Shown one piece after another: positions 10,901-55,256 of a stretch of DNA of 64,000 nt (position 1 is its first letter; every line of letters starts with the position of its first letter). The translations under genes were made by a program, and so were the position numbers. Source of the stretch: a virus (taxonomy: Duplodnaviria > Caudoviricetes); IMG/VR virus record IMGVR_UViG_3300017933_000003, positions 1-64,000 of that record. The stretch is one strand, 5' to 3'. The notes under the pieces were generated by a model, which did not search any database, was not told the DNA's origin, and was given only the letters and a program-made list of their open reading frames with translations.

Positions 10901-10970
10901 TTAAATTGAACACCTATCAATAACGATATATACTCTCACGCAAGAGGGGAAAATATATTTTGGCACCAAT

Positions 10971-11071
10971 TGCCTCGACAATGGTTGAGCGTAATTCCTT
11001 ATCATTCGTATAAATTACACGCTCTTGACGTTGTAGCTACCGTGATTATAATGCGGTGCTTGACGAAGGCA
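10971..11071 (+). promoter_or_regulatory. structured 5' leader of the Ro60 gene
   Basis: TGCCT/AGGCA closing helix, GAGCGT-AATT/AATT-AC-ACGCTC and ACCGT/GCGGT hairpins; lies between a CGATATAT motif (10924) and the ATG at 11117. Confidence 0.45.
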
Positions 11072-11116
11072 TCGTCATTTTGTTGGAACTTTCTTCCAAA
11101 TAAAAGGAGTATTCAC

Positions 11117-12694
11117 ATGTCAAACAAGAATCTATTTTCGAACAAGAAGGCAACTGTGTCTCGTAAGGTGACTCGTGCAACTGACACGACTAATGAAGCA
11201 GGTGGAACTGCCTATAAGCTATCCGACAAGGCTGCTTTGGCGCAATACGCTCTGACTGGCACTTTCAACGGCACCTACTATGCTTCGGATGCAGAGCAGT
11301 TGAAGAAGACGCTCGAATTGGCTAACAAGGTCGATGTTAAGTTCGTTGCCAAGCTTGCCGTGTACGCACGTGAACAAGGCTTAATGAAAGATATGCCCGC
11401 CGTGTTAGCTGCAGTAGTGGCTAGCCGAGATACCGAATTGTTAGCTCAGATTTTTGATCGAGTGATTGATAACCCGAAGATGCTCCGCAACTTCGTGCAG
11501 ATCATTCGTTCAAGTGCGGTGGGTCGCAAGTCCTTTGGCACTCGTATCAAGCGATTGATTCAGAACTATTTGGAAAACTTGACCGACGAACAATTGTTTA
11601 AGGCTGACGTGGGTAACGATCCCAGCTTGCAGGACATTATTAAACTGGTTCACCCCAAGCCTTCTAACAAGAAACGTTCCGCCATGTATGGATATTTGCT
11701 GGACAAAGAATATAATGCTCGCGATTTAGCGCCTTTGGCTAAGGAGTTTGAGCGTTTCAAGAAGGAACTGTCTGGAGAGATTCCTGACGTTCCGTTTCAA
11801 ATGTTAACGGCATTACCGTTGACGGATAAGCACTGGAAGCAGATTGCTGATAATGCCACCTGGAATCAGACACGTATGAATTTGAATACGTTTGCACGTC
11901 ACAATGTATTGGTTGATCGTGATATGACGGTTAAGCTTGCCAAGCGTCTCTCTAACCCAGAGTCAGTGCGTAAGGCGAAGGTGTTTCCTTATCAGTTGTT
12001 TACTTCATATCTCAACATGGATACTACTATTCCTGCCAATTTGACCAATGCGTTGCAAGATGCTGCGGACTCAGCTTTGGATAATATTCCTGAGTTCTCG
12101 GGTAAGGTCTATGTCATGGTAGACACTTCCGGTTCTATGAGTTCTCCAGCCACGGGAAACCGTGGTTCAGTGACCACCAAAACTCGTTGTGTAGATGTAG
12201 CAGGACTCTTTGCTGCCGCTATCTTGCGTAAGAACCCTGATACGGAAATCGTTCCTTTCGATACACGTGTGCACGTGGACTTTCGTTTGAATACTCGTGA
12301 CTCTATTATGACCAACGCTCAAAAGTTGGCTTCTTTCGGTGGCGGTGGTACCGATTGTTCCGCTGCTTTGAAGTATGTCAACAGTCAGCTTAAGAAGGGC
12401 GACCTGGTTATCTATATTAGTGATAACCAAAGTTGGTTAGATTCGGGTTCCTCCTATTATCATGATGCTACGGCAACTATGAATGAGTGGAATAAGTTCA
12501 AAGCTCGCAACCCGAAGGCAAAGTTGGTGTGTATTGATATTCAGCCGTATGCTTCAACCCAGGCACACGATCGTGAAGATATACTAAATATTGGGGGATT
12601 TTCTGATACTTGCTTCGAAGTAATCAATAATTTTATGGAGATGGGATCCAACAAGGATCTTTGGATCAAAACCATCGAGTCCGTCACGCTCTGA
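11117..12694 (+). CDS. Ro60 / TROVE-domain RNA-binding protein with C-terminal vWA domain
   Basis: TNEAGGTAY, GTFNGTYY, MKDMP, LRNFVQIIRS, TRMNLNTF, VFPYQLF and VDTSGSMS (MIDAS) motifs; AAGGAG RBS before ATG 11117. Confidence 0.92.
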   Translation: MSNKNLFSNKKATVSRKVTRATDTTNEAGGTAYKLSDKAALAQYALTGTFNGTYYASDAEQLKKTLELANKVDVKFVAKLAVYAREQGLMKDMPAVLAAVVASRDTELLAQIFDRVIDNPKMLRNFVQIIRSSAVGRKSFGTRIKRLIQNYLENLTDEQLFKADVGNDPSLQDIIKLVHPKPSNKKRSAMYGYLLDKEYNARDLAPLAKEFERFKKELSGEIPDVPFQMLTALPLTDKHWKQIADNATWNQTRMNLNTFARHNVLVDRDMTVKLAKRLSNPESVRKAKVFPYQLFTSYLNMDTTIPANLTNALQDAADSALDNIPEFSGKVYVMVDTSGSMSSPATGNRGSVTTKTRCVDVAGLFAAAILRKNPDTEIVPFDTRVHVDFRLNTRDSIMTNAQKLASFGGGGTDCSAALKYVNSQLKKGDLVIYISDNQSWLDSGSSYYHDATATMNEWNKFKARNPKAKLVCIDIQPYASTQAHDREDILNIGGFSDTCFEVINNFMEMGSNKDLWIKTIESVTL

Positions 12695-16821: not shown

Positions 16822-16904
16822 GGGAAGGTAGCTCAGTGTCAGAGCGCAAGGCGTCCGCAAGGAAAACCTTGAGGTCGGTGGTTTGATTCCATCCCTTCCC
16901 ACCA
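16822..16904 (+). tRNA. tRNA-like gene with a GNRA hairpin inserted in the anticodon loop (Phe-like)
   Basis: GGGAAGG/CCTTCCC+ACCA; GCTC/GAGC D arm; CAAGG/CCTTG stem encloses the 15-nt loop CG-TCC-GCAA-GGA-AAA. Confidence 0.75.
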
Positions 16905-16964
16905 AGCTGAATGCAGATGTGATTACATCGGAAAAATGCAAAATCTCATCAACTCTTGTCAGCT
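16905..16964 (+). ncRNA. Y-like stem-loop RNA, copy 1
   Basis: AGCTGA-ATGC-A-GATGTGAT-TACAT...ATCTCATC-AAC-TCTTG-TCAGCT. Confidence 0.6.
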
Positions 16965-16969
16965 TTTAT

Positions 16970-17064: not shown

Positions 17065-17104
17065 CTTATGGCTTGATTCATGTAAAAGTGAATTGTGCCA
17101 CCAC

Positions 17105-17162
17105 ACCGAATGCCAGTAGGATTACATACCATAAAAAACAAATCTTACTAACTATTGTCGGT
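17105..17162 (+). ncRNA. Y-like stem-loop RNA, copy 2
   Basis: ACCGA-ATGC-C-AGTAGGAT-TACAT...ATCTTACT-AAC-TATTG-TCGGT. Confidence 0.55.
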
Positions 17163-17164
17163 AT

Positions 17165-17250
17165 GGAGTAGACGAGTCATCGGTAGACTCACCAGTCTGT
17201 AAAACTGGCGCCTTTGTGCACTGTGGGTTCGAATCCCTCCTGCTCCACCA
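17165..17250 (+). tRNA. tRNA-Tyr(GUA)
   Basis: cloverleaf; CCAGT-CTGTAAA-ACTGG; long variable arm; CCA. Confidence 0.92.
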
Positions 17251-17298: not shown

Positions 17299-17420
17299 CG
17301 GCGATTAGTACAGTCTGGTAGTACGCTTGTTTTGGCTTGTTAATCATAAATAGTGATGGAATATTCGCTACTTATGACAAGTACAAGAGGTCAGAGGTTC
17401 GAATCCTCTATCGCCGACCA
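17299..17420 (+). tRNA. tRNA-Pro(UGG) with a 45-nt hairpin insertion 3' of the anticodon
   Basis: CGGCGAT/ATCGCCG+ACCA; CTTGT-TTTGG-[17336-17380]-GT-ACAAG. Confidence 0.8.
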
Positions 17421-18821: not shown

Positions 18822-18879
18822 AGATTCCGGTTCTGGTGAAAGTGCGCACAAGGTTGGTTCGATTCCAACACGGATATCT
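18822..18879 (+). ncRNA. minihelix-like element (acceptor-like stem plus T arm)
   Basis: AGATTCCG/CGGATATCT and GTTGG-TTCGATT-CCAAC. Confidence 0.4.
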
Positions 18880-21458: not shown

Positions 21459-21533
21459 CCGCCATAACGAGCCGGTAGCTCTGTCGGGTCTTATAAATCT
21501 GACGGTCAGGTTCAACTCCTGAATGGCGGACCA
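21459..21533 (+). tRNA. tRNA-Ile(UAU)
   Basis: CCGCCAT/ATGGCGG+ACCA; loop CTTATAA. Confidence 0.8.
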
Positions 21534-21598
21534 GACGAATGCTCGATTGGGATTACATTACTTCAATGAACAAACATCTCAGTCAAAATCTTGTCGTC
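21534..21598 (+). ncRNA. Y-like stem-loop RNA, copy 3
   Basis: GACGA-ATGC-TC-GATTGGGAT-TACAT...ATCTCAGTC-AAAA-TCTTG-TCGTC. Confidence 0.62.
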
Positions 21599-21601
21599 AA
21601 T

Positions 21602-30352: not shown

Positions 30353-30426
30353 GGGGTCGTGATATAACGCGATTATGGATCCTCGGCAGGGATCTCACAC
30401 GGGTTGGACTCCCGTCGACTCCACCA
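30353..30426 (+). tRNA. tRNA-Ala(GGC), divergent
   Basis: GGGGTCG/CGACTCC with G3:U70; GATCC-TCGGCAG-GGATC; weak D arm. Confidence 0.72.
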
Positions 30427-33977: not shown

Positions 33978-34339
33978 GTAGAGTAGCTCGGGTAATCGCT
34001 ACATAATATGTAGAGGAAAGTACGGGCTTTATAGGACAAGATGCTGGTTAACGACCAGATACAGTAATGTAATGGAAAGTGCAACAGAAAATACAACGCC
34101 AACTGATAAGACCTAGTCTTATAAAGGGCAAGTGTGAAAAGGCGAGGTAATAGCTCACCGCATTTACAGTGATGTAAATGGCAAGTGCAAACCCCATCTA
34201 AAGCAAGGCAAACAGTAAACGCTTGAGGGCTGTCCGTCCAATGTTTACGGGTTGCTGCTTGAGTCAATAAGTAATTATTGACCTAGATTAATGATTGCCT
34301 GATTTTATACACAGAACCCGTCTTATAGGGCTGCTCTAC
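33978..34339 (+). ncRNA. rnpB: RNase P RNA (bacterial type A-like)
   Basis: GAGGAAAGTACGGGC and ACAGAACCCGTCTTA P4 strands with a compensatory A-U pair; P1 GTAGAGTAGC/GCTGCTCTAC; AACAGAAA, GGTAA and AAACCC...AGCAAG conserved blocks. Confidence 0.92.
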
Positions 34340-34754
34340 TTTTTCTATAATTAATAATGGCTGTTACTGCAATTTTAGTTTCCTCAACTGTAAGAAAATT
34401 ATTTCTTATTGAATTGCATTGTTTACAACAAGGTAAAACGTTATCAACAGTATATCCTTTAGTATTATCTATTCTGTCTAATCCAGATCCATATTTAGAT
34501 TTTGCAGCAAAGAAGTCTTCACAATAATAACAAGGTTTAGAAATCAATTTTGCATATTCATCAATAGTAATTGCCCACTCTTTATGAATTTTAATGCCTC
34601 TTTGTTTAGATTTTGCAAAACGAGATCCAATTTTTTGTTGTTGTTTAGATGCAGCCTCTTTGACTTGTGGTGTTTGTTGGTAACATTTTTTACATATTGG
34701 ACCAGTATACCACTGATAGCTTTCGTGTGTTCCGCATTTAATGCACGCTTTCAT
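34323..34754 (-). CDS. HNH-type homing endonuclease
   Basis: CYYC...GLDRIDNTKGYTVDNVLPCCKQCN. Confidence 0.82.
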   Translation of the reverse strand: MKACIKCGTHESYQWYTGPICKKCYQQTPQVKEAASKQQQKIGSRFAKSKQRGIKIHKEWAITIDEYAKLISKPCYYCEDFFAAKSKYGSGLDRIDNTKGYTVDNVLPCCKQCNSIRNNFLTVEETKIAVTAIINYRKSRAAL

Positions 34755-34817: not shown

Positions 34818-35315
34818 ATGAAAAATAAAAATCCCATCACTAAAGGACCCATCACCAAGGGACTTGTAGTCGATTGGCAAGAAGCTCGCGAGAAAGCCGA
34901 TCAACTTGAAGATAAAATAACTGATCGACTTGATTACGTTATTCAAACTATTTTTGACGCCTTTGGCGTTATATTATACACCTGGTATTTTGGTGATGCA
35001 GCACAAGGAGAATTAGGTTCTCTCACTTGGGATGAACCAGAAATATTTATGGTTTGGGACGCTTCATCTCATGAAGAATTTATCATCCTCGACAGAGATG
35101 GGAACGAATTGATAATGGAAGGATCGGTACCTACCCGTTGGCTCTTCCAATCTTTCGAAGAAGAGCTAAGAGACGGCAAAAGAAAATATGAGGAGCAGGA
35201 GTCAGCTCGATTGGCGAAAGTTCTTTCTGTTAAGGAAGCTACTAAAAAGTTAGCTGCCAGTGCCAAAAAGAAGTTGACCAAAGAAGAGCTAGCAGCCATC
35301 AAGAAAACTTTATGA
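34818..35315 (+). CDS. hypothetical protein
   Basis: start placed at ATG 34818; ATGA overlap with the next gene. Confidence 0.6.
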   Translation: MKNKNPITKGPITKGLVVDWQEAREKADQLEDKITDRLDYVIQTIFDAFGVILYTWYFGDAAQGELGSLTWDEPEIFMVWDASSHEEFIILDRDGNELIMEGSVPTRWLFQSFEEELRDGKRKYEEQESARLAKVLSVKEATKKLAASAKKKLTKEELAAIKKTL

Positions 35316-35950
35316 AAATCAAACTAGCTTACCCTAAAATACCTGATACCTTGCATTGTCCACTTAAAAACTGTATAGCATTTGAGAAGATAGATGGAAC
35401 GTGTTTGCATTTTGTCTGGTCTCCTGAACATGGTTTCCACAGTTTTGGAACTCGAAGGGATCGATTCACTTATATTGATGCTAGCTTTGCTCAGTTTCAT
35501 CAGGATCATCCCGGGCTGAACGGGTTGGAACCAGCCTTCCAGAAAATCGAGCAGCCACTGTCAGATTTTCTGATCAAAAATTACTATAGCACCAAAGAAG
35601 TTATCATCTTCACCGAATTCCACGGACCTCACTCTTTTGCTGGCACCCACAACCTTAAAGAGGAAAAGAAGCTGACCCTCTTCGATGTGCAGGTAGATGG
35701 GGCGATGCTGGCGCCAGATGAATTTATAAAACTGTTTGAGCCCTTTGGCGTCCCCAAGGTGGTCTTTCGGGGAAAGTTCACTGGGCAGCTCTTTATGGAT
35801 GTGCGCAGCGGCAAGTATCCCGTTGCTGAAGGTGTGGTGGTTAAAGGCATGGTAGATGGTCAAGTCTATATGGCTAAGATAAAGACGAACGCTTATTTGG
35901 CAAAATTGAAGAATCAATTTAAGGATAATTGGCGAGAATATTGGGAATAA
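35312..35950 (+). CDS. ATP-dependent RNA ligase-like nucleotidyltransferase (Rnl2-like core)
   Basis: motif I EKIDG, III FTEFHG, IIIa LFDV, IV EGVVVK, V AKIK. Confidence 0.78.
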   Translation: MKIKLAYPKIPDTLHCPLKNCIAFEKIDGTCLHFVWSPEHGFHSFGTRRDRFTYIDASFAQFHQDHPGLNGLEPAFQKIEQPLSDFLIKNYYSTKEVIIFTEFHGPHSFAGTHNLKEEKKLTLFDVQVDGAMLAPDEFIKLFEPFGVPKVVFRGKFTGQLFMDVRSGKYPVAEGVVVKGMVDGQVYMAKIKTNAYLAKLKNQFKDNWREYWE

Positions 35951-37106: not shown

Positions 37107-37565
37107 ATGAGTAAAGAGCAAGAAAAATTAGAGGCTATCAATTATGAATTGGGTGCTATGATTCAGTGGTTGGAAGATCGTATTTCTTATATTGAAGAGA
37201 GCGTGGGAATTCCTTTTGGTCTGGAATATTATCAAGAGATGCTGTCCAAATTAGTTTTAGTGAGGCGCGGCAACTATCCAAACCTCGAAAATATATTTCG
37301 TTTTCATGACGCCAAAGTATCCAAATTGTTAGACCGTATTGATCGGCTCGAAGAAGAGCCCATAAAAGAGAGTATGAAGTCTGATACTATTAAAGCCGCG
37401 ATTCTTTTAATTCAAGAGGGACGCACCTTAGCTCTTCAAGGAGAATATGGTTCTCGAGATTTAGAATATACAGATGTTCGAGAGCGCTTTGATGCTGCTA
37501 TTAATCTTCTGCAAAAACTGGTAAATGATTCTGATAATAACGCCAGTCCTATTACTAAAGAATAA
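37107..37565 (+). CDS. hypothetical protein
   Basis: 152-aa ORF. Confidence 0.6.
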   Translation: MSKEQEKLEAINYELGAMIQWLEDRISYIEESVGIPFGLEYYQEMLSKLVLVRRGNYPNLENIFRFHDAKVSKLLDRIDRLEEEPIKESMKSDTIKAAILLIQEGRTLALQGEYGSRDLEYTDVRERFDAAINLLQKLVNDSDNNASPITKE

Positions 37566-37575
37566 TAGTATTGAG

Positions 37576-38115
37576 ATGGCAACAAAACTAGAAATTGAAA
37601 AGAAGTTCCTGGTTAAACTTCCACAATCTTGGTCAGATTTGGCGGAGATGTTTGATGACATTGTGGATGTTAAGCGTATCATTCAACAATATCTCACCCC
37701 AAAAAATGGCGAGCCGGCATCCAGGGTTAGGAAGACGGTGGAAGGTTTGGAAGGGCAAACCAAGACTGTATATCATTTCAATCAGAAAAAGCCCACGGGT
37801 GATACTGGCACCCACGAAGAGACAGAACGAGAAATTTCTGAAAAGGAATATCAAAAATATCTCAAAAACGCTAACCCCAGTAAATGCGCCGTGGAAAAGA
37901 CTCGTTTCGTTTTCAATTGGCATGATCAAGTCTTCGAATTAGATTTGTTCAAAGGTCATCTCAAAGGATTGGCTATTCTGGAAATTGAGCTGGACGACAA
38001 GGATGATAAGGTAGAGCTGCCACCTTTCTTGAGGGTTATCAAGGAAGTAACCAAGGATAAGCGTTTTACTAATTTCGCGTTAGCCGATAAAAAGTTGCAA
38101 CAGAGAAACAGCTAA
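37576..38115 (+). CDS. CYTH-domain (triphosphate tunnel metalloenzyme) protein
   Basis: LEIEKKFLV, VEKTRF, FELDLF and LAILEIEL motifs. Confidence 0.88.
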   Translation: MATKLEIEKKFLVKLPQSWSDLAEMFDDIVDVKRIIQQYLTPKNGEPASRVRKTVEGLEGQTKTVYHFNQKKPTGDTGTHEETEREISEKEYQKYLKNANPSKCAVEKTRFVFNWHDQVFELDLFKGHLKGLAILEIELDDKDDKVELPPFLRVIKEVTKDKRFTNFALADKKLQQRNS

Positions 38116-45534: not shown

Positions 45535-46167
45535 ATGTTAGATAAACCCGCTATTATAGGCTGTGACGAAGTAGGTTATGGGTGTTTAGCTGGTCCTTTG
45601 GTGGTAGTAGGTATTAGGGCGCCCAAGGACTGGCACCTGGAGGGACTTAATGATTCCAAGAAATTATCAGCCAAGAAACGCGAAGCTATGGCTGACAAGA
45701 TGAATGACTTAATCGTGGATGGTTCTATTACCTGGGCATTAGCGGAGCGTTCCAATGTTGTTATCGATAAGTTTGGAGTGGCAGTAGCTCTCAAAGATGC
45801 TTATGTGGAGGTATTTCACCAACTCTATCAGTCGGACAGTTTAATAATTAGCGACGGAATCTTAAAATTTGACGAGCTGGGCGTGGATGGTTATGATATT
45901 CAGTCTCTAATAAAAGCCGACACCAAGATCCCGCAGGTGATGGCTGCCAGTATTTTGGCGAAGGTGTATCGTGATGGTAAGATGAAAATTTTACATGAAC
46001 TTCATCCTATGTACGGATGGAATAAAAATGTGGGGTATGGCTCTGCTACTCACTTGCAAGCTATTGAAAAGTATGGACCTTCTCCTTTACATAGGTTTTC
46101 TTACGCTCCGATGCGTAATATGAAACTGACTGATCCCCGCCAATGCTTACTACCTTTCAGTAAATGA
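45535..46167 (+). CDS. rnhB: ribonuclease HII
   Basis: GCDEVGYGCLAGP, LNDSKKLS, IKAD, AASILAKVYRD, YGWNKNVGYG and HRFSY motifs. Confidence 0.92.
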   Translation: MLDKPAIIGCDEVGYGCLAGPLVVVGIRAPKDWHLEGLNDSKKLSAKKREAMADKMNDLIVDGSITWALAERSNVVIDKFGVAVALKDAYVEVFHQLYQSDSLIISDGILKFDELGVDGYDIQSLIKADTKIPQVMAASILAKVYRDGKMKILHELHPMYGWNKNVGYGSATHLQAIEKYGPSPLHRFSYAPMRNMKLTDPRQCLLPFSK

Positions 46168-48465: not shown

Positions 48466-48540
48466 GCTTCTGTAATTCAGTGGTAGAATGCTGCGCTTCC
48501 AACGCAGACGTCGCTGGTTCGAATCCAGTCGGAAGCTCCA
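48466..48540 (+). tRNA. tRNA-Gly(UCC)
   Basis: canonical cloverleaf; U73; CCA. Confidence 0.93.
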
Positions 48541-48541
48541 G

Positions 48542-48656
48542 GACGAATGCAGATAGAATTACATTGGATAAAGTTGGGCGCAAGCCTGGCGAGATAGTTC
48601 AAGCCTATCAACAGTTCCGTGAGGAATTGAAAACAATTTTATCAATTCTTGTCGTC
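48542..48656 (+). ncRNA. Y-like RNA, copy 4 (long form with T-arm-like module)
   Basis: GACGA-ATGC-A-GATAGAAT-TACAT...ATTTTATC-AAT-TCTTG-TCGTC enclosing GGC-GCAA-GCC, GATAG-TTCAAGC-CTATC and AGTTCC-GTGA-GGAATT. Confidence 0.65.
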
Positions 48657-49409
48657 TATAAGCGGAATTAGTTCAGCAGTAGAATGCAACATTGCCAATG
48701 TTGATGTGATGGGGGCAGCACCCATATTCCGCTCCAATTTTTCAGAGATAATGCTCTTAATTATATCGAAATACTTTTTTGAAGATTTTTCCTTGAAGTA
48801 ATTTTCACGAGACACATCAATAATAACAAGTTCAATTCCTCTTTCGATGCAGGCTTGAAACTTTCTGTTGTCATTGTTTTGAATAGATGCTAACTTTTCT
48901 ACACCATATATTGGTTCATAATGGAAGATACCGTTCAATTCAAAAGCAAGATTAAGAGAGGGAACATAAATATCGAGTTCGGCATTGATAACTTCTTTGC
49001 TGTTAAAAAGTATTTTAAGATTGGGTAATTGACTAGTTAGTTGTATTTCTAACCAAGCCTCCAATTTAGAACGCCTATTTCCTTTTATTTTATGTGTATT
49101 ATTATATTTTGCCGCGCAGCTTCGTGAGCAAAAATGATTTGGAGAGTTTTTAATTTGATTAGGAAGTTTTTCAAACATTATTTTACACTGTAAACACTCT
49201 ACTTTTTGTTTAGTAATTGCTGCCTGCGCAGCACATTTATGAGAACAATAAATTATCTTCTCGTGATTATGTTCACCAAACTTACTTTGTATTACATTCT
49301 TGGGGCGAGTAAAAGAAATGTGGCATTGTGGGCATTCTAAAGTGACGATAGTGCCAGATTGTAGTGAGTTGATATAAGTCATGAACTCGGGAGTATTGAT
49401 GGGTAGCAT
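48642..49409 (-). CDS. zinc-finger + PD-(D/E)xK-like endonuclease (paralog of 38267)
   Basis: YCSHKC, FCSRSC; RRSKLE...ELDIYVP...AFELNGIFHY. Confidence 0.75.
   Translation of the reverse strand: MLPINTPEFMTYINSLQSGTIVTLECPQCHISFTRPKNVIQSKFGEHNHEKIIYCSHKCAAQAAITKQKVECLQCKIMFEKLPNQIKNSPNHFCSRSCAAKYNNTHKIKGNRRSKLEAWLEIQLTSQLPNLKILFNSKEVINAELDIYVPSLNLAFELNGIFHYEPIYGVEKLASIQNNDNRKFQACIERGIELVIIDVSRENYFKEKSSKKYFDIIKSIISEKLERNMGAAPITSTLAMLHSTAELIPLIDDKN
48662..48736 (+). tRNA. tRNA-Gly(GCC)
   Basis: GCGGAAT/ATTCCGC+TCCA; loop TTGCCAA; T-loop GGCAGCA. Confidence 0.88.
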
Positions 49410-50876: not shown

Positions 50877-51788
50877 ATGAGCAACACCGATCTGATCAAA
50901 GAGCTGCGTGCGTTGACCCAAGCTGGTATGAAGGACTGCAAAGAAGCTTTAGAGGAAGCCGGATGGGACCTACAGAAAGCTGTAGATATCGTCAAGGTCA
51001 AGGGACTCAATATTGCAGATGGTCGTAGTGGTCGTGTTGCTTCTGAAGGTCGTGTAGTCATTGTAGATAATGGTAAGGGTAAATGGGCTACTATGGTAGA
51101 AGTTAATTGCCAAACCGACTTCGTAGCTAATAGCGAAGGTTTCATTGCTTTTGCTAATGATGTTGCTGTTGGCGTAGCTCAAGTAATGTTTGCATGTTCG
51201 GATCCTAGCAAATTTGATGTAGGAGCTTTTGAAGACGCTCGTAAGGCTGTTGTTGCCTCTACTAAAGAGAATGTGGTGGTTCGTCGATGGTGGGGAGAAG
51301 AATCTTTGGACCCTTCTGTGAGGGTATTCTCTTACACTCACTCCAATAATAAACTAGGAGTTTTGTTGAGTCTAAAAGCTCCAAGTGAAATGGCAGCGCA
51401 TCATGAAGATTTCATTAAGTTGGGCGAGGAACTAGCGATGCAGGTTGCTGCTATGAACCCGCTAGCCGTTTCTGTGGATCGTTTGGCTCCAGAGGAAGTC
51501 GCTCGTCAGAAGACTATTTTCGAGACACAGCTTCAAGAAATGAACAAGCCACAAGCTGCTTGGCCCAAGATTATGGAAGGCAAAATGCGCAAGTGGAACA
51601 CTGAGGTATGCCTTTTGGAACAGGAGTCGGTGGTTGTTCCTAAGACTACCGTTGAACAAGTTATAAAGAGTGTTAGTGCCAAAGTTGGTGGCGAAATTAC
51701 CATTGTGAATTTCGTGCGCTGCCAAGTCGGTGAAGGTATCGACAAGAAACAAGACAACCTCGCTGAGGAAGTCGCTAAGATGATGTAA
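50877..51788 (+). CDS. tsf: translation elongation factor Ts
   Basis: IKELRALTQAGMKDCKEAL, EVNCQTDFVA, AMQVAAMNP, CLLEQ, FVRCQVGEGI. Confidence 0.95.
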   Translation: MSNTDLIKELRALTQAGMKDCKEALEEAGWDLQKAVDIVKVKGLNIADGRSGRVASEGRVVIVDNGKGKWATMVEVNCQTDFVANSEGFIAFANDVAVGVAQVMFACSDPSKFDVGAFEDARKAVVASTKENVVVRRWWGEESLDPSVRVFSYTHSNNKLGVLLSLKAPSEMAAHHEDFIKLGEELAMQVAAMNPLAVSVDRLAPEEVARQKTIFETQLQEMNKPQAAWPKIMEGKMRKWNTEVCLLEQESVVVPKTTVEQVIKSVSAKVGGEITIVNFVRCQVGEGIDKKQDNLAEEVAKMM

Positions 51789-54587: not shown

Positions 54588-55256
54588 ATGTTAGACTACA
54601 ACGCATTCAATCTTTATTTAATTCGTCATGGACAATCCGTCGTAAATGTTCTTCCTGATCAAATGGGTCAATCTCCTGATGTTCCTCTCACTGATCGTGG
54701 CAGAGAACAAGCTAATTTATTGAAGCAGCGATTTATGAAAGAGGGTACCGCTTTTCTTCATGTCTTTTCTTCTCATTACACGCGCGCCTTAGACACCGCC
54801 AAGATCGTGACTCATCCTCATGAAGACATAATTCAAATTCATCAAGACTTGCGAGAATATAGCGCGGGTAATTGGGAAGGATCCAAGCGTAGCGAAATTC
54901 TAACGCCTCAAACCGTAATGCGTATGGGCTATATGACCAATGCGTTTCAACCGTCTGGTGGCGAATCTATGAACCAAGTAGAGCGCCGCGTATCTCAATG
55001 GATGGAAGAGGAAATCCTTTACAATCCATTAATTCAACATGAGGCTACTGTCCTTCGTGACCGCGGTTTTTCTAAAATGAACATCGCTATCTTTAGTCAC
55101 GGTATGACTATCAAGTGCTTACTACATCACATTATGGGCTTCGATAAGAGTTTTACGTGGAAGCTTACCTTAGAGAATACTTCGATTAGTAAGTTAGTCT
55201 TTGGAGAGGAAGGGTGGAGATTGATTACGATTAATGACCATGCTCATTTACTATAG
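54588..55256 (+). CDS. histidine phosphatase (phosphoglycerate mutase family)
   Basis: LIRHGQS, LTDRG, RALDTA, LRE, GGES and FSHG motifs. Confidence 0.9.
   Translation: MLDYNAFNLYLIRHGQSVVNVLPDQMGQSPDVPLTDRGREQANLLKQRFMKEGTAFLHVFSSHYTRALDTAKIVTHPHEDIIQIHQDLREYSAGNWEGSKRSEILTPQTVMRMGYMTNAFQPSGGESMNQVERRVSQWMEEEILYNPLIQHEATVLRDRGFSKMNIAIFSHGMTIKCLLHHIMGFDKSFTWKLTLENTSISKLVFGEEGWRLITINDHAHLL

What the first reader, a model, noticed from the sequence alone, without database searches (positions are those of the whole stretch)
48542..48656. Long Y-like copy carries a tRNA T-arm mimic and two GNRA hairpins
Seen in sequence: this copy keeps the conserved bipartite stem but replaces the short loop with three hairpins: GGC-GCAA-GCC (48577-48586), GATAG-TTCAAGC-CTATC (48593-48609; 5-bp stem and 7-nt TTC loop, as in a T arm) and AGTTCC-GTGA-GGAATT (48613-48628). 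Established: bacterial Y RNAs (Yrn1, YrlA) are modular, with a Ro-binding stem plus a tRNA-like effector domain containing a T-arm. Inference: this is the full effector form, and the three 58-65-nt copies are binding-module-only variants.
Basis: partly seen in the sequence, partly recalled or inferred. Interest (0 to 1): 0.75.

Follow-up and report, generated by a model that had tools for sequence, protein, structure and literature searches.

The report
Phage Y RNA with T-arm domain
This is a small RNA gene of a huge phage, wedged between two glycine tRNA genes. It joins the docking stem for the phage's own Ro60 ring protein to a conserved three-hairpin head, one hairpin of which copies a tRNA T arm. 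It is a new variant of the known Ro60/Y-RNA particles, not a new kind of system.

Summary
All three hairpins are at the stated coordinates. A strict T-arm motif is expected about 1e-4 times by chance in this 74-nt insert.

- **Setting:** the window is a fragment of a huge phage that encodes a Ro60/Rsr ortholog (10970-12694). It holds four RNAs with one covarying "handle" that matches the Ro-binding module of YrlA. Only 48541-48657 has a structured head.
- **Orthologs:** three other contigs carry an ortholog, each between two tRNA-Gly genes. All keep the three hairpins through compensatory changes, both GNRA loops and the UUCRA T loop.
this is not a full YrlA-type tRNA mimic. There is no D arm, a 2-nt linker breaks T/acceptor-like stacking, and the Rfam YrlA score is 24 bits against a cut-off of 69. 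Complete T-AS-D heads, and whole tRNAs inside the same handle, occur in related phages but not in this record.
- **Not tested:** Ro binding, processing, modification and any tethered nuclease. No RNA data were available.
- **Earlier in this scan:** similar phage Ro60 / handle-RNA sets inside tRNA arrays were noted on other genomes (e1-272486, e1-5326859).

Verdict: a real, conserved, D-arm-less variant of a known kind, of moderate interest.

The parts
48541..48657 (+). Long Y-RNA-like gene (copy 4): Ro-binding handle plus a three-hairpin head. It starts right after the encoded CCA of the upstream tRNA and ends 4 nt before the downstream tRNA.
   Evidence: Sequence. Rfam YrlA scores 24 bits over model positions 1-114. 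Own covariance models score 73 and 63 bits. Orthologs.
48542..48549 (+). GNCGAAN(0-1)G motif. It comprises the 5' strand of stem 1 (48542-48546) and the start of the AUGCA internal loop (48547-48551).
   Evidence: Matches the motif that defines YrlA/YrlB in PMC4201824 and the Rfam consensus.
48552..48560 (+). Stem 2, 5' strand (9 nt). It pairs with 48635-48643 and is followed by YUAY (48559-48562) and ACAU.
   Evidence: Covariation over 35 family members: 8 of 9 pairs change on both sides. Orthologs fold this way unconstrained.
48573..48590 (+). Hairpin 1 (V-arm position): 7-bp stem with a GCAA tetraloop. The core is 48577-48586.
   Evidence: The orthologs have entirely different stems and GNRA loops.
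48593..48609 (+). T-arm mimic: 5-bp stem and a 7-nt loop. The U55 equivalent is 48599.
   Evidence: Motif scan. In the orthologs, two stem pairs change on both sides and the loop stays UUCRA.
48612..48629 (+). Hairpin 3 (acceptor-stem-like position): 7-bp stem with a GUGA tetraloop, 2 nt after the T arm.
   Evidence: Pair probability 0.98-1.0. Orthologs keep a GNRA-capped hairpin here.
48635..48656 (+). Stem 2 3' strand (48635-48643), 8-nt internal loop ending CUUG (48644-48651), and stem 1 3' strand (48652-48656).
   Evidence: Aligned to the YrlA consensus 3' strand. Family alignment.
48466..48540 (+). tRNA-Gly(UCC) with encoded CCA, directly upstream.
   Evidence: ARAGORN. Rfam tRNA 67.4 bits.
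48662..48733 (+). tRNA-Gly(GCC)-like gene directly downstream, with a non-canonical T loop. Its 5' processing by RNase P would set the 3' end of the Y RNA.
   Evidence: Rfam tRNA 45.9 bits. Not called by ARAGORN.
16904..16966 (+). Short handle-only copy 1, between two tRNA genes.
   Evidence: Rfam YrlA 29 bits. Own model 81.6 bits.
17103..17165 (+). Short handle-only copy 2, flush with tRNA-Tyr.
21532..21601 (+). Short handle-only copy 3, between tRNA-Ile and tRNA-Phe.
   Evidence: Rfam YrlB 22 bits. Own model 60 bits.
10970..12694 (+). Ro60/Rsr ortholog (574 aa; TROVE ring plus Ro60-type vWA domain), the presumed protein partner.
   Evidence: Pfam PF25045 at 8e-16 and PF05731 at 4e-8. NCBIfam Rsr 3e-19. 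Full-length match to D. radiodurans Rsr 2NVO and to phage phiLo Ro60 9KOP.
33980..34341 (+). Phage-encoded RNase P RNA (class A), a possible processing enzyme for the tRNA / Y RNA transcripts.
   Evidence: Rfam RF00010, 281 bits. The link to this RNA is inference.

Best explanation
48541-48657 encodes a phage Y RNA of the YrlA lineage.

1. **Transcription and release.** It is transcribed as part of a tRNA-Gly / Y / tRNA-Gly precursor and released by the tRNA-processing machinery. RNase P cutting at the 5' end of the downstream tRNA would set its 3' end. Maturation at the CCA of the upstream tRNA would set its 5' end.
2. **Docking.** Its handle consists of stem 1, the asymmetric AUGCA / ..CUUG internal loop and stem 2. 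It docks on the phage-encoded Ro60 ring in the way YrlA and other Y RNAs bind Rsr/Ro60.
3. **The head.** The apical domain sits in the YrlA order V - T - AS but without a D arm. It has a GNRA-capped hairpin, a consensus T arm and a second GNRA-capped 7-bp hairpin. This head is the effector module. It displays an isolated T stem-loop to a protein that reads T arms: TruB/TrmA-type modifiers certainly fit, and a tethered RNA-processing or repair enzyme is possible.
4. **The short copies.** The three short paralogs carry only the handle and would occupy or gate Ro without recruiting that partner.

**Shown:** the sequence and structure motifs, their conservation and covariation, and the genomic association with Ro60 and tRNA genes.
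**Inferred:** transcription, processing sites, Ro binding, T-loop folding, and the identity of any partner.
For: 1. **Rfam match.** The only Rfam match is YrlA, spanning the whole element through both strands of the Ro-binding module (24 bits, E = 0.002 locally). The published defining motifs GNCGAAN0-1G and YUAY are both present.
2. **Protein partner.** A Ro60/Rsr ortholog lies on the same strand.
3. **Handle family.** Covariance models of the handle find 2-7 copies in each of 7 distinct related Ro-encoding phage contigs. All are on the Ro strand and many lie just downstream of Ro. In the family alignment, 94.5% of cells are paired, 13 of 14 pairs change on both sides, and 0 of 500 shuffles reach this.
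4. **Independent association with Ro.** Six contigs found by an RNA pattern alone carried true handle hits. Three of them encode Ro orthologs. Three pattern-only contigs without handle hits encode none.
5. **Orthologs.** L039, L071 and L073 were found through the 5' handle only. They keep hairpin 1, the T arm and hairpin 3 with compensatory changes. They also keep the GNRA loops, the UUCRA loop and the 2-nt RA linker, and they fold that way unconstrained.
6. **T arm beyond chance.**
7. **Link to YrlA.** Long forms in relatives have full T-AS-D heads that score 50 and 38 bits against YrlA (E = 2e-8).
8. **tRNA flanks.** All four copies start 0-1 nt after an encoded CCA and end 1-5 nt before a tRNA. 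By ARAGORN alone, 26 of 52 family members are flush with a tRNA.
9. **Precedent.** Phage Ro60 binding phage-encoded Y-like RNAs is experimentally shown for Thermus phage phiLo (PMC12135203).
Against: - Rfam YrlA stays far below its gathering score (24 against 69 bits), and the model's tRNA-like core is not aligned.
- There is no D arm, so the T-loop/D-loop elbow that defines YrlA cannot form as in the crystal structure.
- This copy lies 36 kb from the Ro gene. Published YrlA genes lie within 4 kb of it.
- Predicted thermodynamics do not favour the proposed fold for this copy: ViennaRNA prefers an alternative fold without the T arm by 1.9 kcal/mol.
- One complete 70-kb phage (G010) has handle RNAs but no detectable TROVE gene. 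The handle therefore need not always work with a phage Ro.
- The closest large relative (G001) has the two tRNA-Gly genes adjacent without this RNA.
Confidence: 0.65

Rival explanations
1. It is a tRNA-operon spacer or processing element. On this reading it is a structured inter-tRNA spacer that guides or punctuates precursor cleavage, like the stable species 1 and 2 RNAs of the T4 tRNA cluster (recalled from memory). It would have no role with Ro60.
For: All copies are flush with tRNA genes. This copy is 36 kb from Ro. A complete phage has the RNAs without a TROVE gene. The phage encodes its own RNase P RNA.
Against: The handle reproduces the sequence motifs of the Ro-binding module of YrlA, not just a hairpin. 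In L007, L047 and L048 the RNAs form tandem arrays with no tRNA nearby, and in L007 and L047 those arrays sit next to the Ro gene. Processing and Ro binding are not mutually exclusive.
Confidence: 0.12
2. The head is a decaying remnant of a tRNA (or of a full YrlA-type head) that lost its D arm. On this reading the T-arm look is historical and only the handle is functional.
For: There is no D arm. The 2-nt linker breaks T/AS stacking. More distant D-less forms (L003:17676, L062:377) have weaker T stems or shorter third hairpins and no GNRA loops. Related phages carry complete heads and even whole tRNAs in the same handle.
Against: Four orthologs diverge at nearly every stem position of hairpin 1, and at two T-stem pairs, yet always keep pairing. 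All T-loop consensus bases and both GNRA loops are kept. That is the signature of purifying selection on structure, not of decay.
Confidence: 0.12
3. It is a conformational switch. On this reading the copy toggles between the Ro-binding fold (stem 2 plus T arm) and the alternative helix 48567-48576 / 48634-48643, which hides the T arm.
For: The alternative is the minimum-energy fold here and dominates the ensemble (probability 0.88-0.96).
Against: The alternative helix shrinks to 5 bp or fewer in the orthologs, is broken in L073, and is not chosen by their unconstrained folds. It is specific to this copy.
Confidence: 0.05
4. It is a decoy. On this reading the exposed T arm soaks up a host tRNA-directed defence nuclease or a tRNA-binding sensor during infection, with Ro serving only to stabilise the RNA.
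For: The phage invests heavily in tRNAs and RNA repair: more than 20 tRNA genes, RNase P RNA, RNA ligase, a CYTH domain protein and a histidine phosphatase. A T-arm mimic without anticodon or acceptor ends is useless for decoding.
Against: There is no direct evidence. Known anticodon nucleases read the anticodon loop, which is absent here.
Confidence: 0.06

Closest known systems
YrlA (Rfam RF02553; S. Typhimurium, M. smegmatis, mycobacteriophages; Chen et al. 2014, PMC4201824; Wang et al. 2018, 10.1101/312249)
   Same: - A closing stem carrying GNCGAAN0-1G, then an internal loop, a second stem and YUAY.
- A head in the order V, T arm, acceptor-like hairpin.
- Encoded on the Ro60 strand in a Ro60-encoding genome.
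- T loop with the full tRNA consensus.
- A 7-bp acceptor-like hairpin, as in M. smegmatis YrlA.
   Different: - No D stem-loop, so no canonical elbow.
- A 2-nt linker between the T arm and the acceptor-like hairpin.
- Both side hairpins capped by conserved GNRA loops.
- 36 kb from the Ro gene.
- Embedded between two tRNA genes.
- Scores 24 bits against a gathering score of 69.
YrlB / handle-only Y RNAs (Rfam RF02565)
   Same: They share the Ro-binding motif. The three short copies in this window resemble this class.
   Different: The long copy has a 74-nt structured head. Scores are far below the gathering score (22-32 against 97 bits).
Thermus phage phiLo Yrl1/Yrl2 with phiRo60 (PMC12135203; PDB 9KOP, 9L5Y)
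   Same: Phage-encoded Ro60 with phage-encoded Y-like RNAs of stem-bulge-stem design with a CGAA motif. The window's Ro matches 9KOP over its full length.
   Different: The phiLo RNAs lie next to the Ro gene and are not described as carrying a T arm or as lying inside tRNA operons. In phiLo, binding and PNPase recruitment were measured. Here nothing was measured.
D. radiodurans Yrn1
   Same: A Y RNA with a T-arm-like stem-loop and no complete D arm. It tethers Rsr to PNPase.
   Different: Yrn1 has native-order topology with an anticodon-like arm. Both strands of its Ro helix are metazoan-like.
Stable species 1 and 2 RNAs of the phage T4 tRNA gene cluster (recalled from memory, not checked here)
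   Same: Small stable non-tRNA RNAs encoded among phage tRNA genes and released from tRNA precursors.
   Different: T4 has no Ro60. No sequence relation was tested.

Membership tests
YrlA (RF02553) | GNCGAAN0-1G motif near the 5' end, in the Ro-binding helix | tested here: met
   48542-48549 fits the motif (definition). It aligns to the model consensus.
YrlA (RF02553) | Conserved YUAY after the second stem | tested here: met
   UUAC at 48559-48562. UAC is invariant in the window's four copies.
YrlA (RF02553) | T stem-loop with tRNA consensus | tested here: met
   48593-48609. Beyond chance and conserved with compensatory changes. In-vivo folding and modification were not tested.
YrlA (RF02553) | Acceptor-like stem-loop directly after the T arm | tested here: inconclusive
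   A 7-bp hairpin follows at 48612-48629, but after a conserved 2-nt linker. In YrlA the two are contiguous (nt 33-49 and 50-64).
YrlA (RF02553) | D stem-loop with GG that forms the elbow with the T loop | tested here: not met
   Only 5 nt (48630-48634) lie between hairpin 3 and stem 2. The orthologs have no such hairpin either.
YrlA (RF02553) | Score at or above the Rfam gathering threshold (69 bits) | tested here: not met
   24 bits. The best relatives reach 50 bits.
YrlA (RF02553) | Encoded within about 4 kb of Ro60 on the same strand | tested here: inconclusive
   Same strand, but 36 kb away. The paralogous copies lie 4.2-9 kb from Ro. In relatives most copies lie 0.05-10 kb downstream of Ro.
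Y RNA (functional class) | Bound by Ro60/Rsr | not testable with these tools
   No RNA-protein docking or RNA data were available. This is inferred from motifs and gene association.
tRNA (RF00005) | Cloverleaf with acceptor, D, anticodon and T arms | tested here: not met
   No tRNA hit inside 48541-48661 at E up to 10. ARAGORN finds none. Only the T arm is present.

The most novel reading that the evidence does not exclude
The Ro-binding handle of huge-phage Y RNAs is a plug-in scaffold born in tRNA operons. The same handle carries no head, a D-less V-T-AS head (this copy), a full permuted T-AS-D head, or a whole native-order tRNA. The D-less head, with its two selected GNRA loops, would be a distinct effector module. 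It would fold by GNRA/T-loop tertiary contacts in place of a D loop, and recruit a different partner from YrlA. The series would also be living evidence for the proposed origin of YrlA from dimeric tRNA precursors.
Probability: 0.15. Interest if true: 0.7.

Novelty: new variant of a known kind. Interest (0 to 1): 0.45.

Why it matters
Ro60/Y-RNA particles are conserved from bacteria to humans. What the tRNA-like head of bacterial Y RNAs recruits is still unknown.

A phage lineage offers a natural dissection series. It keeps one Ro handle but swaps heads: none, T arm without D arm, full tRNA mimic, or whole tRNA. It also releases these RNAs from tRNA precursors.

The D-less form tests whether an isolated T arm is enough for the effector function. 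The setting in tRNA operons bears on the proposed origin of YrlA from dimeric tRNA transcripts. For phage biology, it adds to the picture of huge phages carrying their own tRNA-maturation and RNA quality-control kit.

Tried and rejected
- **Expression data.** No RNA holder was listed for this stretch. The laid wetland DNA contigs were identical to the window and showed no variants, ends or joints. There is therefore no expression or natural-variation information.
- **Named relatives.** Megablast against GenBank phages found no match.
- **Positional orthologs in the closest large relatives.** G001 has tRNA-Gly(UCC) and tRNA-Gly(GCC) adjacent with no insert. The G002 fragment has none at the tRNA match.
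- **Promoters and terminators.**
  - The consensus scan gave nothing on the + strand.
  - TGATATAAW lies 8-13 nt upstream of two tRNA/Y clusters but is not enriched in the window, with 4 found against 3 expected.
- **DUF2828** as an alternative ring protein in the Ro-less phage G010: no match, and the control genomes did not ring either.
- **Formal pair counting on the head.** MAFFT alignments of the orthologs (A4, A5) put hairpins 1 and 3 out of register. I did not run formal pair counting on them. Pairs were read from each loop outward instead.
- **D-loop substitute.** The GG at 48566-48567 is kept in the orthologs. The same GG also occurs in headless short copies and is absent from the distant D-less forms, so this reading is not supported.
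- **Most pattern hits** were chance. Only 6 of 32 contigs held true handle matches.

Full report
**What is there.** The stretch lies between tRNA-Gly(UCC), 48466-48540 with an encoded CCA, and a tRNA-Gly(GCC)-like gene at 48662-48733.
- a 3-bp hairpin with a GCAA loop (48577-48586, extendable to 7 bp at 48573-48590);
- a 5-bp / 7-nt-loop hairpin (48593-48609) with the full T-arm consensus: closing G:C, UUC, purine, A;
- a hairpin with a GUGA loop (48613-48628, 7 bp at 48612-48629).

A strict T-arm pattern is found 18 times on the + strand of the window and never on the - strand. Most of the others lie in tRNA or tRNA-like genes; the one at 18853 does not. Shuffles give 0.19 per window, about 1e-4 for this insert. 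The whole element folds with z = -4.0.

**What it belongs to.** The window is part of a 79.7-kb IMG/VR virus record that CheckV rates as 18% complete, so this is a huge phage. It carries more than 20 tRNA genes and an RNase P RNA.

At 10970-12694, on the same strand, it encodes a 574-aa Ro60/Rsr ortholog:
- Pfam Ro60-type vWA and TROVE domains;
- the NCBIfam Rsr model;
- full-length matches to D. radiodurans Rsr and to the Ro60 of Thermus phage phiLo.

The only Rfam family that matches the element is YrlA. The match runs end to end and rests on the two strands of the Ro-binding module (24 bits, below the cut-off of 69). The two published YrlA signatures, GNCGAAN0-1G and YUAY (PMC4201824), are both present, at 48542-48549 and 48559-48562.

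Three shorter paralogs (16904-16966, 17103-17165, 21532-21601) share the layout: stem 1, AUGC, stem 2, UACAU, an A-rich loop, stem 2', an internal loop ending in UUG, and stem 1'.

**Family evidence.** I built covariance models of this handle.
- They find no further copy in the record.
- They find 2-7 copies in each of 7 distinct related contigs that were retrieved through the Ro protein. All are on the Ro strand, and many lie directly downstream of Ro.
- On 35 copies, 94.5% of cells pair and 13 of 14 pairs change on both sides. No shuffle or slid register comes close. The alignment was fitted to the model, so this leans in its favour.
- A scan with an RNA pattern alone recovered six more contigs with true handles. 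Three of them encode Ro orthologs, while three pattern-only contigs without handles encode none.
- One complete 70-kb phage has the RNAs but no TROVE match.

**Are the three hairpins conserved?** An exact 20-mer from the 5' handle, which says nothing about the head, found three orthologs: L039:12375-12494, L071:3235-3351 (-) and L073:457-576. Each sits between two tRNA-Gly genes. L071 is syntenic with the window from tRNA-Met to tRNA-Arg.

Reading pairs from each loop outward:
- Hairpin 1 has a different stem in every ortholog but always pairs. It is always capped by GNRA (GCAA, GAAA, GCAA, GCAA).
- The T stem changes on both sides at two of its five pairs. It keeps the closing G:C and the UUCRA loop.
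- A 2-nt RA linker is kept between the T arm and hairpin 3.
- Hairpin 3 keeps a GNRA cap (GUGA, GAAA, GUAA, GUAA).

All three orthologs fold without constraint into stem 1, stem 2 and three hairpins.

In the window's copy alone, ViennaRNA prefers an alternative helix by 1.9 kcal/mol. That helix is not conserved.

**Where the interpretation overreaches.** YrlA's effector domain is a permuted tRNA: V, T, acceptor-like and D stem-loops form an L shape through the T-loop/D-loop elbow. This copy follows the order V, T, AS and then stops. Five nucleotides lead back to stem 2, so there is no D arm. The 2-nt linker also interrupts T/AS stacking.

It is therefore a D-arm-less head, not the full form. 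Two more distant D-less relatives exist (L003:17676-17784, L062:377-485).

Complete T-AS-D heads on the same handle occur in other phages:
- L048:11818-11938 and L048:11959-12087, which score 38 and 50 bits against YrlA (E down to 2e-8);
- L012:20902-21046;
- L062:151-292.

Two copies enclose a whole native-order tRNA body (L039:12166-12296, L044:10940-11045; Rfam tRNA 43 and 40 bits). The family is thus modular, and this record holds only the headless type and the D-less type.

**Likely mechanism (inference).**
1. The RNA is co-transcribed with the flanking tRNAs.
2. Its 3' end is set by RNase P at the downstream tRNA. Its 5' end is set by maturation at the upstream CCA.
3. The handle binds the phage Ro ring.
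4. The head presents an isolated T stem-loop. An isolated T stem-loop is the minimal substrate of TruB and TrmA (from my own knowledge, not checked here).

No PNPase gene was seen among the roughly 43 ORFs I scanned. RNA ligase, CYTH, histidine phosphatase, RNase HII and EF-Ts genes are present. No RNA data exist for this phage.

**Novelty.** Y RNAs next to phage Ro60 genes have been published since 2014 and were biochemically confirmed in 2025. Jumbo-phage TROVE proteins are noted in PMC7824862. New here are three things:
- the D-less, GNRA-capped head, conserved in at least four phages;
- the handle family's systematic placement inside tRNA operons;
- the range of heads on one handle.

Earlier notes of this scan describe similar handle families in other phages.

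Noticed in passing
window 33980-34341 (+): Full-length bacterial class A RNase P RNA (281 bits) encoded by a phage record.
   Followed up: no
window 48662-48733 (+): tRNA-Gly(GCC)-like gene (Rfam 45.9 bits) whose T loop lacks the UUC consensus. ARAGORN misses it. The minus-strand ORF 48642-49409 overlaps it and the last 15 nt of the Y RNA.
   Followed up: partly
window 17299-17417 (+): tRNA with an insert of about 45 nt (Rfam tRNA 55.6 bits over 119 nt).
   Followed up: no
window about 17066-17102 (+): An 11-bp hairpin that ends in ACCA, directly before short copy 2. It looks like a minihelix-type tRNA mimic.
   Followed up: no
window 18853-18869 (+): A strict T-arm motif outside any called tRNA, in the spacer upstream of tRNA-Asn. 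It may belong to a truncated tRNA-like element.
   Followed up: partly
window 30353-30426 (+): Sub-threshold tmRNA match (33 bits against 47) to the tRNA-like ends of the model.
   Followed up: no
window 35312-35950, 37525-38115, 45535-46167, 50877-51788, 54588-55256: RNA ligase, CYTH domain protein, RNase HII, a full EF-Ts homolog and a histidine phosphatase. Together they form a translation and RNA-repair gene set in the phage.
   Followed up: partly
L048 11728-12089 (record G010, 69,948 bp, direct terminal repeats): A complete phage with three tandem handle RNAs, two of them with full T-AS-D heads. It has no TROVE or DUF2828 match, so it may rely on a host Ro.
   Followed up: partly
G011:C1:12907-14535 (-) (contig of L062): The Ro ortholog (66% identity) is read through two in-frame TGA codons. 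Possible causes are recoding, an alternative code, or a broken gene.
   Followed up: no
L039 12166-12296; L044 10940-11045: The same handle encloses a whole tRNA-like body in native order (Rfam tRNA 43 and 40 bits). ARAGORN calls the first one tRNA-Ile.
   Followed up: partly
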